From sequence record NC_054912.1: a stretch of 64,000 nucleotides of DNA. One strand, given 5' to 3'. Under the pieces are notes generated by a model. That model ran no database searches and was not told where the DNA came from. It was given only the letters and a program-made list of their open reading frames with translations. How positions within the stretch are numbered: position 1 is the stretch's first letter; each line of letters opens with the position of its first letter. A program made the translations under genes and the position numbers. The DNA is from Escherichia phage vB_EcoM_F1. Shown here one piece after another: positions 2,448-22,367 of the stretch.

Positions 2448-2547
2448 TACTGGCTCATCCATTCTTTACGAAGGTCAGGATTAAATGGGACTGCACGAGA
2501 TGGGATAAACATAACTTTCATAATTAAGCCTTATTAAAATTAAAATG

Positions 2548-2565
2548 AAGCTCCCGAAGGAGCTT
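2548..2565 (-). terminator. stem-loop with UUCG tetraloop followed by U-rich tract (intrinsic terminator-like)
   Basis: aagctcc-cgaa-ggagctt inverted repeat; minus-strand RNA continues cauuuuaauuuu. Confidence 0.5.
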
Positions 2566-3361
2566 AGGACATCCAACACATTTTATAACCTTTGCAGGTT
2601 CTGTTAGGATTATTTAATGCTTTCAATATATTAGAAGACCCTATATCTAAATACTCCCTTAATTCATAAAGATAGTTAAAATCAATAGTTTCACCTGTTT
2701 TTACACTTGTGATTCTTATAGGCCTTCTTTCATATTTAGATTTATACAACTCTCTAGTCTTAGCTTTAGTTTCTTCTGACCTAGGAGTGTATGGTTTAAA
2801 TCCTTTTGTTTTAAATGTTTCCATTCTTGATTTAGTTATTTTATCCTGGTGTTCTTTTGTTTTTACAGGTGCTTTTCGCCCATTCTCCCAAGATAACTTG
2901 TTGGCCTGTATTATTTTATCTATTGCTTCTTGCGTATGAGTTTTACCATAAAATGGATTTAATTCGCCTATACGTTGTGAAGCAATATGTGACATTAATT
3001 CTCTTGTTGCTTTAGTATGTTTTTTACCTTTAAATGGGTTGCCATTTTTAGCAATCCATTCTTTCATAAATCTAGAGTGCTCTTTAGAGAATTCTTGTTT
3101 AAGCCAATCATAATCTCTAGAATTTCTAGCTCCCATGTAAAAAGCTCTAATAGCCATAAGCATAGAACGGTTCTTATGAATTTTATAAAGCAATAAATGG
3201 GCGATAAAATGCTCTCTAGGGGTCATTTTAACTAGATTTGATTTAGCATTACTCCCGCCCATAGATTTAGGCAAAATATGGTGAGTTTCAGTATAATTAG
3301 GAATAGTGCTGCGGTTTTTAGCCGCAGCGATAAGTTTATCATAAATTTTACGATAATTCAT
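2564..3361 (-). CDS. HNH-family homing endonuclease-like protein
   Basis: 265-aa ORF with HHILPKSMGG..N motif typical of HNH nucleases; ATG overlaps gene 39 stop (TAATG); track start at 3376 is a TTG. Confidence 0.7.
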   Translation of the reverse strand: MNYRKIYDKLIAAAKNRSTIPNYTETHHILPKSMGGSNAKSNLVKMTPREHFIAHLLLYKIHKNRSMLMAIRAFYMGARNSRDYDWLKQEFSKEHSRFMKEWIAKNGNPFKGKKHTKATRELMSHIASQRIGELNPFYGKTHTQEAIDKIIQANKLSWENGRKAPVKTKEHQDKITKSRMETFKTKGFKPYTPRSEETKAKTRELYKSKYERRPIRITSVKTGETIDFNYLYELREYLDIGSSNILKALNNPNRTCKGYKMCWMS

Positions 3362-17698: not shown

Positions 17699-17899
17699 AT
17701 GGTACAAAAATTAATGGCACTTGTTAATGCCATAAAAGGTAATAAGAAACGTATAGCTTTTACTATTTCTGCTATGATAGGAATTTTACTTTGGAATTTT
17801 GTTTTATCGCCAGTTGCTATTGCTCATGGCGTTAGTATTCCAGTAGTTACTCTTGATACATTCGTAGATTTAGCATTTGCTTTAGTTGGGTTAATTTAA
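17699..17899 (+). CDS. candidate small membrane protein (66 aa, two hydrophobic segments) on the opposite strand
   Basis: AAAGGAGGA Shine-Dalgarno about 4 nt before ATG; lies in the dam-61 intergenic gap; stop overlaps gene 61 stop. Confidence 0.45.
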   Translation: MVQKLMALVNAIKGNKKRIAFTISAMIGILLWNFVLSPVAIAHGVSIPVVTLDTFVDLAFALVGLI

Positions 17900-18924
17900 A
17901 TCTTAGCATATTTAGATAACCGCATTTTAGCCATCAACCCCTGGGCAATATTATTTTTCATATATTCCATAATTTGTTCAGGGGTTGCACCTTCCTTTCT
18001 AATCATATCATTAACATCTTTTGATTTCCAGGGAGATTTATCCCAAAACATAACCCTTTCTCCTGCATCAACTAATTTAGTCATTCGTTTGATAGTGTCA
18101 GGGTGACGAGGTTCATTATCTAAAACCCACACTCGTCTATCTTTAAATGGAACAACTTCTAGGTCTAATTGACCACCCGTAATAGCTATACCATTTTCAA
18201 TAAAAAGTGAATCTATAGGTCCTTCTAGAACATATACATCACCATCTTTAACCCGTTCGACTCCATAGATTTTTGTTGCCTCAGGATAAGCTTTGATGGT
18301 GATATATTTTTGAGGAGCATCTTTCTTTAATGCACGTCCTTGAAAAGACTCAGCTTTTCCATTAGCATTATAAATTGGAATAACAAGACGAGGCTCAGAA
18401 ATTTCCTTTTTATATGTTCCCGGTGCTATGCTATTAACTAATTTAGGCCATTCGGTTGTAAACCAAAGATATTTCCATTTATCCTTTGGAATACAACGAG
18501 CTTTTACATATTTTATAATTGGATGGTCTTCCGACAGTTTATCTAATCTAACACATGACGGAAGAGATTTAATTATTTTCTTCTCAGGTTGTTTAGGAAG
18601 TTCTTTAGGTTTTTCTACTGGACGACTTTTACCTTTTTCTTTTCTTATTTCAAAGATATACTCACGATATAAATCAGGTTCAAACTCCTTTAAATATATT
18701 CCGATTGGTGCATGATAGTTACAGTTATAACAATGAATATTTCCTTCATTATTATCGCCATAATACCATCCACGGGCTTTATTTTGATCGGTTTTTGAAT
18801 CTCCACAAACGGGACATCTAAACCGTAATTTAAAAGTTGAACTATTATTTACTTGTGCGAATTTAGGTAAATGAGCCAATGCACGGTATGCAAACTCATT
18901 ATCAATCCAAGGTATTGATGACAT
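17896..18924 (-). CDS. 61: DNA primase (gene 61)
   Basis: 342 aa; N-terminal zinc ribbon CPVCGD...CYNC; TOPRIM region; recognised as T4 gp61. Confidence 0.9.
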   Translation of the reverse strand: MSSIPWIDNEFAYRALAHLPKFAQVNNSSTFKLRFRCPVCGDSKTDQNKARGWYYGDNNEGNIHCYNCNYHAPIGIYLKEFEPDLYREYIFEIRKEKGKSRPVEKPKELPKQPEKKIIKSLPSCVRLDKLSEDHPIIKYVKARCIPKDKWKYLWFTTEWPKLVNSIAPGTYKKEISEPRLVIPIYNANGKAESFQGRALKKDAPQKYITIKAYPEATKIYGVERVKDGDVYVLEGPIDSLFIENGIAITGGQLDLEVVPFKDRRVWVLDNEPRHPDTIKRMTKLVDAGERVMFWDKSPWKSKDVNDMIRKEGATPEQIMEYMKNNIAQGLMAKMRLSKYAKI

Positions 18925-18926
18925 TT

Positions 18927-19091
18927 TTACTCTTCTTTTTCTTTAGATTCCTCTTTTTTCTTTTTAGGAATCTGTTCAGGACCTTTATTTACTACAGCAC
19001 CTGATGTTGTTCCAGTAGAGATATTTTCAGGATTACCACCTGAATCTCCAGCAACCATATCTTCTTTAATAAATTCTTTATATGTTTTCAT
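18927..19091 (-). CDS. small Lys/Glu-rich hypothetical protein (54 aa)
   Basis: manually translated MKTYKEFIKEDMVAGDSGGNPENIS...KEKEE; fills the gap upstream of gene 61. Confidence 0.4.
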   Translation of the reverse strand: MKTYKEFIKEDMVAGDSGGNPENISTGTTSGAVVNKGPEQIPKKKKEESKEKEE

Positions 19092-19137
19092 ATTAACCTC
19101 TATTCATAAAAGCATTAAAAATTTGGTCATCAATAGA
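19089..19137 (-). repeat. 49-bp direct repeat, copy 1 (spans stop of 19093..19449 and start of downstream ORF)
   Basis: catattaacctctattcataaaagcattaaaaatttggtcatcaataga; 46/49 identical to copy 2. Confidence 0.6.
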
Positions 19138-19449
19138 TGGAATAGCAACCTTTTCGGCATCATTTAGCAAATCATTAATTTCATCAGATAGCATAACACA
19201 TGTGCCTTTATTTCCTGTAATTGTTACTGCACAATTACGAACGTTTTCTTTATCAAATTTTAGGTTAATATTTTCGTAGTGAAAATCCTTTAATGCCGAA
19301 TATATCTTTAAAATGAAATTGTCTTTTACTACAATAAACCCAACCTCACTATTAAAACGTGGTTCATGGAAACTGTAATAAACCTTTTCATCTATAAAAT
19401 CGTATGAAATTTTTTCCATTTTTAAATATGAAAATTCAGAACTATACAT
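19093..19449 (-). CDS. hypothetical protein (118 aa) with one G.IFV.KDN.I domain
   Basis: shares domain motif and C-terminal tail SIDDQIFNAFMN with the next ORF. Confidence 0.55.
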   Translation of the reverse strand: MYSSEFSYLKMEKISYDFIDEKVYYSFHEPRFNSEVGFIVVKDNFILKIYSALKDFHYENINLKFDKENVRNCAVTITGNKGTCVMLSDEINDLLNDAEKVAIPSIDDQIFNAFMNRG

Positions 19450-19495
19450 ATTAACCTTTATTCATAAAAGCATTAAAAATTTGATCGTCAATAGA
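19447..19495 (-). repeat. 49-bp direct repeat, copy 2
   Basis: catattaacctttattcataaaagcattaaaaatttgatcgtcaataga. Confidence 0.6.
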
Positions 19496-20083
19496 AACTT
19501 TTACTTTAGGCTGTTCTTCAAACGTTAATTCATATCCACATATTACAATTTTGTGATCGATACCAAAATACACAGAAGCAATATTATTAATATTATTTTC
19601 AGTGAAATCTAAATCAACATCAATATCTTTTTGACTAACGCTCAAAGGATAATTAATACGAATAATTCGATTATCTTTAACAAAGATTCCACCGACATAC
19701 TCTGTGCTGCGTTTAAAGTTTACACGTTTCCTAAATGAAAAATATTCAGGCTCTTTATGGGCTCGACTCATAGGGCTTAAAGTGTATTCCGAATATGAAA
19801 TATCAAATCCTACACCTTCAATATGAGCCAAAGTGTCATGATTAAACCAATTATAATCGTATGCCAAATCCATTAAATTGTAATATGTGAAAGGCACCGG
19901 ATTAACATCATATGTTGTACCTTTAAAATCTGCCCAGGCAACGATTTCGTTATCTTTAACAATTACAAAAATTGTGCCAATAAGATATCCACGGTTATTT
20001 TCATCAGGCGTTATATTATAACATTGTGCATCAGGAAATTTACCGTATTTAAACGGTGGATTTTTGTGCATATAATAAATCAT
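19451..20083 (-). CDS. hypothetical protein (210 aa) with two G.IFV.KDN.I domains
   Basis: internal duplication; same C-terminal tail as 19093..19449. Confidence 0.55.
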   Translation of the reverse strand: MIYYMHKNPPFKYGKFPDAQCYNITPDENNRGYLIGTIFVIVKDNEIVAWADFKGTTYDVNPVPFTYYNLMDLAYDYNWFNHDTLAHIEGVGFDISYSEYTLSPMSRAHKEPEYFSFRKRVNFKRSTEYVGGIFVKDNRIIRINYPLSVSQKDIDVDLDFTENNINNIASVYFGIDHKIVICGYELTFEEQPKVKVSIDDQIFNAFMNKG

Positions 20084-20084
20084 A

Positions 20085-20378
20085 TTATTCGCCTGTGATT
20101 TCGGTTACGGTATTTTTGTTATTAAAGTTTTTATCGCAATACAGAACATAATTATACTGCATTACACCGCCAGACTTAAGTTGTTTTTGAACTTCGGCTT
20201 TCATTTCAGGACGATCACGCTCAACGATATTCATAATATCTGCTTCAATTTGAGTTTCAACCTCAGTCTGATCTGCAGTCATAGACCATTCGCACAAATC
20301 TTTATCATAACCTGCCATAGCAGGCTGAGCAGCGCAAGAAGCTAAAGCAAAAATTGTAGCAAAGATAAATTTTTTCAT
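20085..20378 (-). CDS. sp: Spackle periplasmic protein (superinfection/lysozyme inhibitor)
   Basis: 97 aa from ATG 20378 with GAGGAG RBS; signal peptide MKKFIFATIFALASCAAQPAMA; recognised as T4 Sp. Confidence 0.8.
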   Translation of the reverse strand: MKKFIFATIFALASCAAQPAMAGYDKDLCEWSMTADQTEVETQIEADIMNIVERDRPEMKAEVQKQLKSGGVMQYNYVLYCDKNFNNKNTVTEITGE

Positions 20379-20404
20379 GATTAATCTCCTCAGTAGTTTA
20401 TGTT

Positions 20405-20437
20405 TATATAGTATCTCAATTTCCAATAAAAGTAAAC
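20405..20437 (-). promoter_or_regulatory. T4-type early promoter upstream of sp
   Basis: minus strand GTTTACttttattggaaattgagaTACTATATA. Confidence 0.45.
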
Positions 20438-20439
20438 AG

Positions 20440-20697
20440 TTATTTTAAAACTTTTGCGTAATCACATGTTACAAACTGTTTCTCTAGCTTAACGATCTTA
20501 CGAAAATACCTTTTACACTGACGAATCTGTCGCTTCGTAGGGCGCACAGCAAACTTAATAAATTCTACTCGACCAAATGGAGGGCTTTCTTCCGCTGGAA
20601 TATCTAACACCAATTCCCACGTATCCGCAATAAGTGCCTTGAATTGAGTATTTTTCCTGACGTTATACGGAGTAGGTTTAAATAAAACAATATGCAT
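20440..20697 (-). CDS. hypothetical 85-aa protein in the 61.4 position (possibly TifA-like)
   Basis: ATG at 20697 one nt after dmd stop; track ORF extends to 20739; identity by position and length only. Confidence 0.45.
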   Translation of the reverse strand: MHIVLFKPTPYNVRKNTQFKALIADTWELVLDIPAEESPPFGRVEFIKFAVRPTKRQIRQCKRYFRKIVKLEKQFVTCDYAKVLK

Positions 20698-20698
20698 A

Positions 20699-20881
20699 TT
20701 ATCCTCGGCAATCCACTTCGCACACTTTCTTGTCATCAATGAAAGCTTTAACTAATGCTTTATTAACTTCAGCATACTGAGTAGTAGCCCATTGAACGTC
20801 ATCTTTCATCATTGTGGTTTCTTTAGTAAACATGCTTTCATTCTTAAACCACCCCATAAAAACTACCTTTACCAATTCCAT
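20699..20881 (-). CDS. dmd: Dmd, antitoxin against RnlA/LsoA RNase toxins
   Basis: 60 aa MELVKVVFMGWFKNESMFTKE... recognised as T4 Dmd. Confidence 0.85.
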   Translation of the reverse strand: MELVKVVFMGWFKNESMFTKETTMMKDDVQWATTQYAEVNKALVKAFIDDKKVCEVDCRG

Positions 20882-20910
20882 AACAATCTCCTCATTTAAC
20901 CAACAAGACT

Positions 20911-20940
20911 ACTATACCATAGTCTTGTCAGCTTGTAAAC
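20911..20940 (-). promoter_or_regulatory. T4-type early promoter upstream of dmd
   Basis: minus strand GTTTACaagctgacaagactaTGGTATAGT. Confidence 0.5.
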
Positions 20941-22367
20941 TAAAATTTTAATTCATTTGCCAAAGCATCTAACTGAGCTCGAGTCGATTCGTTTCTTTGA
21001 TAGCGATTCTGCTCAGCTTGTATCTGTTGTGAACCTGCTACCTCACTCACTTCAGTTGGAGTAGAATCTTGTTCAATTTCTACCCATTTCTGATTTCCTT
21101 TTTGAACACCCATCAAAAACTTATTCCATTTATTCTTATCACCATATCGTGATTTGATTTGCTTAATAAGTTGTTGCTCAGCAGCTGCTAACTCCTCAGT
21201 TTCAATGACCGCAAGCATAAAATCAGCTGTTGCTGGAAGACCAGCAGATTCTGCAATATCGCTCATGTTAACATCAGAAGAATCCCAAGCTTGTTTACCA
21301 ACCTGTGCTGCAGTCCAAAGAACAGTTTCGGTTTCAACAGCCAGAGCACGCAATTCCTCTGCAATAGCTTTAACAGTTGTGTAACTATTTTCTGAATAAA
21401 CTCTAATGCGGCAAGATTTACAAATACCTAGATAGTCAACAATAATGATTGTTGGAACAAAATTCTTCTTGAGCTTCAATTCGTTTAAAAGTGATCGAAA
21501 TGTATTAGCATCTGCCCCACCAGTAGGATACTGTTTAACGATTAAACGACCGAGAGTAGATTTCTCACGCCATTTTTCCATTTTTCCTTTATACTCAGCG
21601 TAAGAAATATGTCCATCATCAATATCGTCAAGAGAAACATCGAGCATGTTAGCATCAATACGTTTAGCACAGACTTCTTCTGCCATTTCCATGGAAATGT
21701 AAAGAACATTATGTCCGAGCTGTAAATAATCTGCTGCCAATGAACACAGACCTAATGACTTACCAACGTTAACGCCAGCCATTAAAACGTTCAGTGTTCC
21801 AGTCTCAGCTCCGCCTTTAGTAATTTTGTTTAGAATTCTGAGTTTAAATGGAACCTTGCGAGCTTTATTCATATAAGATAGCCAACGTGCTTCGTAGTCA
21901 TCCATCCAATCATGACCAACGTAGCTATCAAATGAAATTGATAATGCTTGGCGCATGATGTCAGGAATAGCACCAACATCCGGCAATTTCTTATTTCGTT
22001 TTTCCGGAGGAAGTTCAGCATTAGTTTGAATTTCGATTATTTTAGACGTAGCATTAAACATCGCCCTTTGCTGAACATATTTTTCTGTTTCTTTTACTAA
22101 CCAACTGTGGTCTTCTGGAGAATCAGCTAGTTTTGAAATAAGTGTTTTTACACCAGAATATTCTGTTTCAGTAAATGAACTATTTTCTAATGCAACATTT
22201 AACGCATTAATAGATGGAACGCTATGATACTCATTAACATGGGATTTAATTAATTTGAATGTATTTTTAGCTGGACCACTTTCAAAATATTCTGAATCCA
22301 TATATGGCCAAACTTTTGAAAAATAAGCTTGATCAAATATGAGATGAGAAAGAATAATTTCTACCAC
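20940..22367 (-). CDS. 41: replicative DnaB-like helicase (gene 41)
   Basis: 475 aa; Walker A GVNVGKS; recognised as T4 gp41. Confidence 0.9.
   Translation of the reverse strand: MVEIILSHLIFDQAYFSKVWPYMDSEYFESGPAKNTFKLIKSHVNEYHSVPSINALNVALENSSFTETEYSGVKTLISKLADSPEDHSWLVKETEKYVQQRAMFNATSKIIEIQTNAELPPEKRNKKLPDVGAIPDIMRQALSISFDSYVGHDWMDDYEARWLSYMNKARKVPFKLRILNKITKGGAETGTLNVLMAGVNVGKSLGLCSLAADYLQLGHNVLYISMEMAEEVCAKRIDANMLDVSLDDIDDGHISYAEYKGKMEKWREKSTLGRLIVKQYPTGGADANTFRSLLNELKLKKNFVPTIIIVDYLGICKSCRIRVYSENSYTTVKAIAEELRALAVETETVLWTAAQVGKQAWDSSDVNMSDIAESAGLPATADFMLAVIETEELAAAEQQLIKQIKSRYGDKNKWNKFLMGVQKGNQKWVEIEQDSTPTEVSEVAGSQQIQAEQNRYQRNESTRAQLDALANELKF

What the first reader, a model, noticed from the sequence alone, without database searches (positions are those of the whole stretch)
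19089..20083. Domain duplication with a 49-bp direct repeat carrying a shared C-terminal tail
Two adjacent genes (118 aa and 210 aa) both end with SIDDQIFNAFMN[RK]G, and the DNA spanning their stops and the following start is a 46/49-identical direct repeat (19089-19137 and 19447-19495). The 210-aa protein has two copies of a G.IFV.KDN.I domain and the 118-aa protein has one. This looks like a recent duplication or deletion by recombination between the repeats.
Basis: seen in the sequence. Interest (0 to 1): 0.5.

Follow-up and report, generated by a model that had tools for sequence, protein, structure and literature searches.

The report
AdfA paralogue pair sharing promoter-bearing tail
Two neighbouring T4-like phage genes, the anti-DarT factor AdfA and an old half-size relative of it, end in the same 14 amino acids, and the 49 bases involved also match a mapped T4 promoter for the DNA primase gene and mark the edges of a gene module that related phages carry or lack.

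Summary
The 49-nt direct repeat (19089-19137 and 19447-19495) is 46/49 identical, and both ORFs end in SIDDQIFNAFMN[RK]G.

The window is Escherichia phage vB_EcoM_FN, a Tequatrovirus. The 210-aa gene is adfA (T4 gene 61.2, anti-DarT factor A). The 118-aa gene is a single-domain paralogue of its C-terminal half.

This is not a recent duplication. Outside the tail the two genes share 35% amino-acid and 46% nucleotide identity. The short gene is under purifying selection.

The repeat is a composite. It holds the conserved C-terminal peptide, a Shine-Dalgarno site and a TAATATG stop/start overlap. It also matches the mapped T4 MotA-dependent middle promoter P61; copy 1 is base-for-base identical to T4.

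T4 lacks exactly 358 bp, which is one repeat plus the short gene. All four combinations occur in GenBank phages:
- both genes: about 156 records
- adfA only: about 184
- short gene only, including T2: 141
- neither: about 27

Alleles of the two genes are reassorted between phages, so recombination happens at or near this junction.

The short gene's function is untested. I infer a DarT-type inhibitor with a different specificity.

The parts
19451..20083 (-). adfA (T4 gene 61.2), anti-DarT factor A, 210 aa
   Evidence: Pfam PF23813 AdfA, E = 4.7e-138, full length 1-210. phrog_3781. Orthologous position to T4 61.2 between sp and 61.1.
19093..19449 (-). 118-aa single-domain paralogue of the AdfA C-terminal half (annotated RB32ORF033c, 'similar to gp61.2', in RB51)
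   Evidence: BLASTP to AdfA residues 111-210: 38% identity, E = 6e-12. Pfam AdfA 34.1 bits against a cut-off of 27, profile positions 113-211. phrog_4122 E = 6.7e-73. RB51 annotation. dN/dS 0.04-0.33. AlphaFold pLDDT 80.5.
19089..19137 (-). Repeat copy 1: last 14 codons and stop of the 118-aa gene, a P61-type middle promoter, the Shine-Dalgarno GAGG, and the ATG of 61.1
   Evidence: Identical over all 49 nt to the single copy in T4.
19447..19495 (-). Repeat copy 2: last 14 codons and stop of adfA, a second P61-type promoter sequence, the Shine-Dalgarno AAGG, and the ATG of the 118-aa gene
   Evidence: Its 3 differences from copy 1 (GAC GAT for GAT GAC, AAA for AGA) lie outside the MotA box and the -10 element.
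19108..19117 (-). MotA box of promoter copy 1 (TAATGCTTTT)
   Evidence: Motif scan. Homologous to T4 P61.
19090..19095 (-). -10 element TAATAT of promoter copy 1. It overlaps the stop TAA of the 118-aa gene and the ATG of 61.1. The predicted transcription start is at 19083.
   Evidence: The T4 P61 start site 19122 lies 7 nt after the same hexamer. The window sequence is identical.
19466..19475 (-). MotA box of promoter copy 2
   Evidence: The corresponding site is annotated 'promoter' in phage Lutter, MT682714.
19448..19453 (-). -10 element TAATAT of promoter copy 2. The predicted start at about 19441-19443 falls inside codons 2-3 of the 118-aa gene.
   Evidence: The position is inferred by analogy with T4 P61.
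18927..19091 (-). gene 61.1 (54 aa), downstream of repeat copy 1
17896..18924 (-). gene 61, DNA primase, the gene after which P61 is named
20085..20378 (-). sp (spackle), upstream neighbour. Its stop overlaps the adfA start in the same TAATATG arrangement.
   Evidence: Pfam T4_Spackle E = 8.4e-45. Sequence.
20440..20881 (-). 61.4 (tifA, 20440-20697) and dmd (20699-20881), the rest of the published anti-toxin-antitoxin island
   Evidence: ORFs. T4 annotation. Island concept in PMC9391042.

Best explanation
The locus is the anti-toxin-antitoxin island of a T4-like phage, in the order dmd - tifA - sp - adfA - 118-aa gene - 61.1 - primase. The 210-aa gene is adfA, the published inhibitor of the DNA ADP-ribosylating toxin DarT1. 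The 118-aa gene is an old, selectively maintained, single-domain paralogue of the AdfA C-terminal half. That half carries the residue that sets DarT1 specificity in RB69 AdfA.

All members of this small family end in the peptide DDQIFNAFM. In Tequatrovirus the DNA for that peptide also matches the mapped MotA-dependent middle promoter P61, the Shine-Dalgarno site and the overlapping stop/start of the next gene. Peptide selection, regulatory constraint and codon bias together keep the 49 nt nearly invariant while the gene bodies diverge. This is why it appears as a high-identity direct repeat.

Shown: the repeat delimits a 358-bp module that is precisely present or absent among related phages, and alleles of the adfA and 118-aa modules are reassorted between phages.

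Inferred: homologous recombination within or next to the cassette deletes, inserts and swaps modules. Phage FN has two tandem P61-type promoters pointing at 61.1 and the primase gene. The 118-aa protein is translated from upstream read-through mRNA by coupling to adfA, and it inhibits a DarT-type toxin of a different specificity from AdfA.
For: Identity of the genes. AdfA function, and the R164H specificity site lying in the C-terminal half: PMC11257639, with my alignment.

Age of the paralogy: body identity is 34.6% amino acid and 45.7% nucleotide, against 92.9% in the tail. dN/dS is 0.04-0.33.

Tail under protein-level selection: it is invariant in all AdfA and 118-aa homologues and in metagenomic and other-genus members. 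In the core DDQIFNAFM, all variation across genera is at third codon positions: 6 of 9 third positions vary and 0 of 18 first or second positions do.

Promoter: Hinton 2010 Table 1 lists P61 with start site 19122. That base lies 7 nt after TAATAT, with a 12-bp spacer to tAATGCTTTt. The sequence is identical in window copy 1. Both copies are annotated 'promoter' in MT682714. The motif gives 9 hits in 64 kb against 0.65 expected.

Exact indel: T4 lacks 358 bp.

Population: the 118-aa gene is in 297 records. The adfA-to-118-aa junction is in 156 and the sp-to-118-aa junction in 141, including T2. Loss of both is seen in RB3.

Reassortment: adfA alleles more than 99% identical pair with 118-aa alleles only 81% identical. 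T4-type adfA alleles (94-99.7% identical) occur both with and without the 118-aa gene.

Ongoing rearrangement at the cassette: phage CP has a perfect 60-bp tandem duplication of it.

T4 is known to delete and amplify this very island by recombination at short homologies (PMC9391042).
Against: No crossover has been mapped inside the 49 nt. All six single-copy Tequatrovirus loci I read carry the tail variant that is identical to the 118-aa gene's tail, and no chimeric tail was seen, so gain and loss cannot be told apart.

The excess of nucleotide identity over what the shared peptide and codon bias give is modest (P = 0.03).

Activity of promoter copy 2 is unmeasured. A transcript starting there would lack the start codon of the 118-aa gene.

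Function: T2 carries the 118-aa gene but no adfA, and T2 lacking adfN is sensitive to DarTG1. The 118-aa protein therefore does not neutralise that DarT1 in that setting. Neither FN AdfA nor the 118-aa protein has the histidine that confers DarT1 neutralisation.

The apparent two-copy amplification in Yersinia phage phiD1 sits in N-rich sequence and may be a misassembly.
Confidence: 0.78

Rival explanations
1. Recent tandem duplication, or ongoing copy-number change, of part of adfA. On this reading the 49-bp repeat is what remains of near-identical copies.
For: The two genes are paralogous and adjacent. The repeat is 94% identical. T4 differs by exactly one unit. Phage CP has a fresh 60-bp duplication of the cassette. 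The phiD1 record shows two copies of the 118-aa gene.
Against: The bodies are 45.7% identical in nucleotides and 34.6% in amino acids. The 118-aa family has its own deep alleles 81% identical to each other and more divergent members in other genera and in metagenomes. It is under purifying selection. The phiD1 junction is full of N.
Confidence: 0.07
2. The repeat is only a by-product of an invariant C-terminal peptide plus the strong A/T codon bias of T4-like phages. On this reading it has no role in recombination, and the promoter overlap is incidental.
For: In the core peptide, variation across genera is purely synonymous. The codon-usage null gives only P = 0.03. The RB69-like and VR7 tails keep the peptide while changing the MotA-box core: GCT becomes GCA or GCC.
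Against: The indel boundaries coincide exactly with the repeat. Module alleles on the two sides of it are reassorted. A mapped promoter start site corresponds to this sequence in T4. Within Tequatrovirus the 49 nt stay identical even where the adfA body is only 66-75% identical (L012).
Confidence: 0.15
3. The 118-aa ORF is a decaying remnant of a broken adfA copy with no function of its own.
For: Broken adfA genes do arise. Shigella phage CT01 has internal deletions that leave a 101-aa ORF equal to the AdfA C-terminal half.
Against: The ORF is intact, at 118-119 aa, in all 13 carrier loci whose sequence was read. Its body is matched over at least 80% of its length in 297 records, at 95-100% nucleotide identity in 292 of them. 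dN/dS is 0.04-0.33. The AlphaFold model is confident and compact, with pLDDT 80.5. It is retained in 141 records that have lost adfA itself.
Confidence: 0.04
4. Assembly artefact caused by a repeat.
For: Repeats can cause misjoins. The phiD1 record looks like one.
Against: The same junction is found in 156 records from many laboratories and platforms, and in metagenome contigs.
Confidence: 0.01

Closest known systems
AdfA, anti-DarT factor A (T4 gene 61.2; Pfam PF23813), described by LeRoux et al. 2022 as cited in PMC11257639 and PMC9391042
   Same: The 210-aa gene is a full-length member at the orthologous position. The 118-aa gene matches the C-terminal half of the profile above the curated cut-off. 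It includes the region of the R164H specificity residue and the invariant tail.
   Different: The 118-aa protein has one domain instead of two. It has never been tested. It is also present in T2, which the literature treats as lacking adfA. FN AdfA has Asn at the specificity position, where the DarT1-neutralising alleles have His.
T4 middle promoter P61 (start site 19122; Marshall, Sharma and Hinton 1999, listed in Hinton 2010, PMC2988021)
   Same: Window copy 1 is base-for-base identical to the T4 sequence around that start site. It has a MotA box, a 12-bp spacer and a TAATAT -10 element.
   Different: I found no paper noting that this promoter is written inside the last codons of adfA. FN-type phages carry a second copy 358 bp upstream, which T4 lacks.
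[quoted passage not shown] 2010, PMC2839356; Comeau et al. 2014, PMC4122927)
   Same: Both are short repeated regulatory sequences that flank non-essential ORFs in a variable region and coincide with insertion, deletion and replacement boundaries. Recombination between two direct copies would release a small circle, here 358 bp.
   Different: Here the promoter is of the middle (MotA) class, not the early sigma-70 class. There is no stem-loop terminator. The cassette lies inside coding sequence and encodes a conserved peptide. No circles have been observed.
Anti-toxin-antitoxin island of T4, and amplification or deletion driven by short homologies (Srikant et al. 2022, PMC9391042)
   Same: It is the same genomic island (dmd, tifA, adfA). 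Recombination between short direct homologies was shown experimentally to amplify or delete segments of it.
   Different: Those laboratory events used 6-10 bp microhomologies around dmd-tifA. Here a 49-bp natural repeat bounds a standing polymorphism at adfA.

Membership tests
AdfA (Pfam PF23813) | Sequence match to the family profile above the curated cut-off | tested here: met
   210-aa protein: 457.9 bits over the full length. 118-aa protein: 34.1 bits against a cut-off of 27, but only profile positions 113-211.
AdfA (Pfam PF23813) | Full-length architecture of about 210 aa | tested here: not met
   This applies to the 118-aa protein. It aligns only to AdfA residues 111-210 and its model is a single domain. 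The 210-aa protein meets this feature.
AdfA (Pfam PF23813) | Position between sp and 61.1 in Tevenvirinae | tested here: met
AdfA (Pfam PF23813) | His at the position of RB69 AdfA residue 164, the DarT1-neutralising allele | tested here: not met
   FN AdfA has Asn (INNI) and the 118-aa protein has Asn (VRNC). RB51 and T4 have His, and the divergent 118-aa allele P0005 has His.
AdfA (Pfam PF23813) | Binds and neutralises DarT1 | not testable with these tools
   Indirect evidence only. T2 carries only the 118-aa gene, and T2 lacking adfN is DarTG1-sensitive.
T4 MotA-dependent middle promoter | MotA box (a/t)(a/t)(a/t)TGCTTtA placed 12 +/- 1 bp upstream of a TAnnnT -10 element | tested here: met
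   Both copies read TAATGCTTTT, then 12 bp, then TAATAT. There is one mismatch at the last box position.
T4 MotA-dependent middle promoter | Experimentally mapped start site | tested here: inconclusive
   The start was mapped in T4 (P61, start 19122). Window copy 1 is identical in sequence. Nothing has been measured in phage FN, or for copy 2.
PeSL cassette | Strong sigma-70-type early promoter plus a stem-loop terminator | tested here: not met
   No terminator-like site in 18800-21000, and no sigma-70-type hit in the repeat.
PeSL cassette | Repeated copies coincide with the boundaries of gene gain, loss or replacement | tested here: met
Recent tandem segmental duplication | High identity along the whole duplicated unit | tested here: not met
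   45.7% nucleotide identity in the body.

The most novel reading that the evidence does not exclude
The 49-bp sequence is a working exchange cassette that combines a conserved C-terminal peptide, the P61 promoter, a Shine-Dalgarno site and a stop/start overlap. T-even phages would use it to plug toxin-inhibitor modules in and out, possibly through 358-bp circles as described for PeSL cassettes. The single-domain 118-aa protein would be an autonomous inhibitor of a DarT-type (or other ADP-ribosyltransferase) toxin with a specificity different from AdfA. The shared tail would be the common docking helix, and the variable body would set specificity.
Probability: 0.25. Interest if true: 0.65.

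Novelty: new variant of a known kind. Interest (0 to 1): 0.45.

Why it matters
AdfA is one of the few characterised phage inhibitors of DNA ADP-ribosylating toxins. Published surveys score phages only as adfA-positive or adfA-negative. A half-size paralogue is present in about 297 sequenced T-even-like phages. About 141 of those, including the classical phage T2, have no adfA. This paralogue is an obvious untested candidate for the unexplained part of T-even resistance to DarTG systems.

The locus is also a clear natural case of one short sequence serving as protein tail, promoter, ribosome-binding site and module boundary at once. That overlap would explain why the sequence is frozen while its neighbours evolve fast. 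It also gives a concrete site at which to test how counter-defence modules are shuffled.

Tried and rejected
- **Internal duplication of AdfA by sequence.** The profile comparison was weak: 28% probability over 15 columns. Only the order of secondary-structure elements agrees.
- **IMG/VR scan for the repeat.** Only 5 loci were found, too few for population work, so I used GenBank phages instead.
- **Junction count with a T4 query.** This count is confounded because the tool joins the two pieces in two-copy genomes. I replaced it with junction-specific queries. The adfA-only number (about 184) is therefore obtained by subtraction.
- **phiD1 as evidence of amplification.** Rejected because the junction is N-rich.
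- **Gene conversion between the two tails.** The tail variants do not co-vary within genomes, except in phage CP, so there is no clear support.
- **'Portable tail on unrelated bodies'.** This idea weakened. The 145-146-aa tail-bearing proteins of Dhakavirus and Gaprivervirus look like divergent homologues (hhalign 97%; Foldseek E = 1.2e-4).
- **Literature search for RB32ORF033c.** No paper was found.

Full report
**Where the window comes from.** The region 18900-20450 is 100% identical to Escherichia phage vB_EcoM_FN (MZ170041), a Tequatrovirus. It matches 663 T4-like phage records in all. The genes lie on the minus strand in the T4 order:
- gene 41 helicase (20940-22367)
- dmd (20699-20881)
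- 61.4, also called tifA (20440-20697)
- sp (20085-20378)
- a 210-aa gene (19451-20083)
- a 118-aa gene (19093-19449)
- 61.1 (18927-19091)
- gene 61 primase (17896-18924)

Srikant et al. called this stretch an anti-toxin-antitoxin island (PMC9391042).

**Checking the observation.** Both ORFs and their shared ending are as described. The repeat at 19089-19137 and 19447-19495 is 49 nt and 46/49 identical, with copies 358 nt apart. Shuffles of the surrounding 1.3 kb never exceed 33/49. In gene orientation the repeat reads TCT ATT GA[T/C] GA[C/T] CAA ATT TTT AAT GCT TTT ATG AAT A[G/A]A GGT TAA TATG. That is the last 14 codons, the stop, and the overlapping ATG of the next gene. The G.IFV..KDN.I motif is present twice in the long protein and once in the short one.

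**What the genes are.** The 210-aa protein is a full-length match to Pfam AdfA, anti-DarT factor A (E = 4.7e-138). This is T4 gene 61.2. AdfA blocks the DNA ADP-ribosyltransferase toxin DarT1. In RB69 a single change, R164H, switches neutralisation and DarT1 binding on (PMC11257639).

The 118-aa protein aligns with AdfA residues 111-210 at 38% identity (E = 6e-12). It hits the AdfA profile at positions 113-211 with 34.1 bits, above the cut-off of 27. It forms its own PHROG family, phrog_4122. The RB51 record has annotated it as RB32ORF033c, 'similar to gp61.2'. I found no paper that mentions it.

The RB69 R164 position lies in the shared half. It is Asn in FN AdfA, His in RB51 and T4 AdfA, Asn in the FN 118-aa protein, and His in a divergent 118-aa allele.

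**Structure.** The 118-aa protein gives a confident compact single-domain model: five strands, then a helix, a strand, and two helices (pLDDT 80.5). Its element order matches the AdfA C-terminal half. At the level of secondary structure it also matches the N-terminal half (pLDDT 69). The sequence test for an internal duplication in AdfA is weak. No solved structure gives a convincing match.

**How widespread the family is.** The family is tiny, with only 10 clusters among 1.84 billion representative proteins. Four of them are single-domain forms with the same tail.

**Not a recent duplication.** Outside the tail the paralogues are 34.6% identical in amino acids and 45.7% in nucleotides. In the tail they are 92.9% identical. 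The 118-aa gene has deep alleles of its own, with the FN type and the Sf21 type 81% identical. Its dN/dS is 0.04-0.33, so it is a maintained gene and not debris.

**Why the tail is frozen.** Two layers of constraint act on it.

The first is the peptide. S[IV]DDQIFNAFM[NK][RK][GD] is conserved in every AdfA and every single-domain homologue found:
- the other AdfA and 118-aa homologues from the protein search
- an RB69-like contig
- the Gaprivervirus VR7 pair, of 145-157 aa and 119 aa
- a Dhakavirus 146-aa protein
- metagenomic proteins of 120 and 125 aa

In the core DDQIFNAFM, six of nine third codon positions vary across these sequences, and none of the 18 first or second positions do. That is the signature of selection on the protein. 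The 145-146-aa proteins appear to be very divergent homologues rather than unrelated bodies.

The second layer is regulation. Hinton's review lists an identified T4 middle promoter, P61, with start site 19122. The original source is Marshall, Sharma and Hinton 1999. In the T4 sequence that base is the A of ATGAAAAC[A] in gene 61.1. The hexamer TAATAT then occupies -12 to -7, and tAATGCTTTt sits 12 bp upstream. This fits the consensus (a/t)(a/t)(a/t)TGCTTtA, N12+/-1, TAtaaT. The stop TAA of adfA and the ATG of 61.1 lie inside the -10 hexamer, and the MotA box is the codons AAT GCT TTT.

Window copy 1 is identical to T4 over all 49 nt. Copy 2 differs at three positions, all outside the box and the -10 element. 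The annotators of phage Lutter marked both copies as promoters. In the 64-kb window this motif occurs 9 times, against 0.65 expected.

With the peptide held fixed, the two copies show 2 synonymous differences where codon usage alone predicts 6.0 (P = 0.03). Within Tequatrovirus the 49 nt remain identical even next to an adfA body that is only 66-75% identical (L012).

**The repeat as a module boundary.** T4 lacks exactly 358 bp, which is one repeat copy plus the body of the 118-aa gene, and it retains one copy. All four combinations exist among GenBank phages:

| Arrangement | Examples | Records |
|---|---|---|
| adfA + 118-aa gene | FN, RB51, Lutter, Sf21, slur11 | 156 |
| 118-aa gene only, directly after sp | Shigella phage A2, phage T2 | 141 |
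| neither gene | RB3 | about 27 |
| adfA only | T4 | about 184, by subtraction |

Where adfA is absent, a 15-nt remnant, TTAGAGG(T/C)T(A/G)ATATG, links sp to the next gene.

Alleles are reassorted. adfA bodies more than 99% identical (FN, Sf21, L011) sit next to 118-aa bodies only about 81% identical. 118-aa bodies 99% identical (FN, slur11) sit next to adfA bodies only 80% identical. Closely related T4-type adfA alleles occur both with and without the 118-aa gene. Exchange must therefore take place between the two bodies, which means in or beside the shared tail.

Phage CP carries a perfect 60-bp tandem duplication of the cassette. CT01 has an adfA broken by short-homology deletions. The repeat occurs at 905 places in 708 records. 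The apparent double copy of the 118-aa gene in Yersinia phage phiD1 lies in N-rich sequence and I do not rely on it.

**How it most likely works.**

Shown:
- the gene identities
- the composite content of the repeat
- the exact indel
- the four-way polymorphism
- the reassortment of alleles

Inferred:
- Homologous recombination at the cassette deletes or inserts the 358-bp module. T4 is known to rearrange this same island through even shorter homologies.
- Excision would give a circle in which the cassette sits in front of the 118-aa body, analogous to PeSL mini-circles (PMC2839356).
- FN-type phages have two tandem P61-type promoters aimed at 61.1 and the primase gene.
- A transcript from the upstream copy would begin inside codons 2-3 of the 118-aa gene. 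That gene must therefore be translated from read-through mRNA, by coupling to adfA through the AAGG Shine-Dalgarno site and the TAATATG overlap.
- The 118-aa protein is a toxin inhibitor of the AdfA type with a different specificity.

Against that function, T2 has only the 118-aa gene, yet it becomes DarTG1-sensitive when adfN is deleted. If the protein is an inhibitor, its target is not that particular DarT1.

The genes belong to a known family and the promoter is a known one. What I could not find described is:
- the single-domain paralogue as a widespread entity, including in phages scored as lacking adfA
- the fact that the AdfA tail and P61 are the same DNA
- the use of this cassette as a module boundary

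I rate this a new variant of a known kind, of moderate interest.

Noticed in passing
window 19583-19585 (-), AdfA residue 167 counted from the first Met: FN AdfA has Asn (INNI) at the position equivalent to RB69 AdfA R164, where the DarT1-neutralising alleles have His (T4, RB51: INHI). This is a third state at the published specificity switch. The 118-aa paralogue also toggles between Asn and His at the aligned position in different alleles.
   Followed up: partly
L024 (phage T2, PV958097) 1505-1861: T2, described in PMC11257639 as naturally lacking an adfA homologue, carries the 118-aa AdfA-like gene directly after sp. About 141 GenBank phages share this arrangement.
   Followed up: yes
L019 (phage vB_Eco_CP, OZ034683) about 1684-1743: A perfect 60-bp tandem duplication of the tail cassette (TGCTGCACCT plus the 49-nt repeat) lies between the 118-aa gene and 61.1. 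This gives the locus three repeat copies and a 6-codon mini-ORF.
   Followed up: partly
L017 (Yersinia phage phiD1, NC_027353) 1454-2412: The locus has four copies of the 49-nt repeat and two copies of the 118-aa gene that are 100% identical over the 300 nt compared. The junction between them is full of ambiguous bases, so this is probably a misassembly or a mixed population at the repeat.
   Followed up: partly
L022 (Shigella phage CT01, OK018184) 1160-1722: adfA is broken by two short internal deletions. This leaves a 72-aa N-terminal ORF and a 101-aa ORF that equals the AdfA C-terminal half plus the tail. It illustrates how a single-domain form could arise.
   Followed up: partly
L025 (VR7, Gaprivervirus) 2505-3303; L015 (IME341, Dhakavirus) 2005-2445: Other genera carry different tail-bearing genes in the same slot. 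These are a 145-157-aa protein (phrog_8539) alone, or followed by a 119-aa single-domain gene. The gene after the tail is a TifA-like DUF7279 protein instead of 61.1.
   Followed up: partly
L014 3370-3837 (RB69-like metagenome contig): A 155-aa protein (phrog_2086) has a C-terminal third that matches the whole of gp61.1 (phrog_1823). gp61.1 therefore also exists as the end of a longer protein in related phages.
   Followed up: no
window 20083-20089 and 19447-19453 / 19089-19095: The same TAATATG stop/start overlap joins sp to adfA, adfA to the 118-aa gene, and the 118-aa gene to 61.1. This suggests serial translational coupling along the island, and a 7-nt microhomology at every module boundary.
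   Followed up: no
window 19537-19551 and 19875-19889: A perfect 15-nt inverted repeat (CACATATTACAATTT / AAATTGTAATATGTG) lies inside adfA, with arms 323 nt apart. I did not examine it and it may be chance.
   Followed up: no
(GenBank phages): The 118-aa gene body is 95-100% identical in 292 of 297 records. The adfA body is only 80-90% identical to FN in 385 of 485 records, and its first 200 nt or so are the most variable part. The two neighbouring paralogues therefore show very different levels of diversity.
   Followed up: partly
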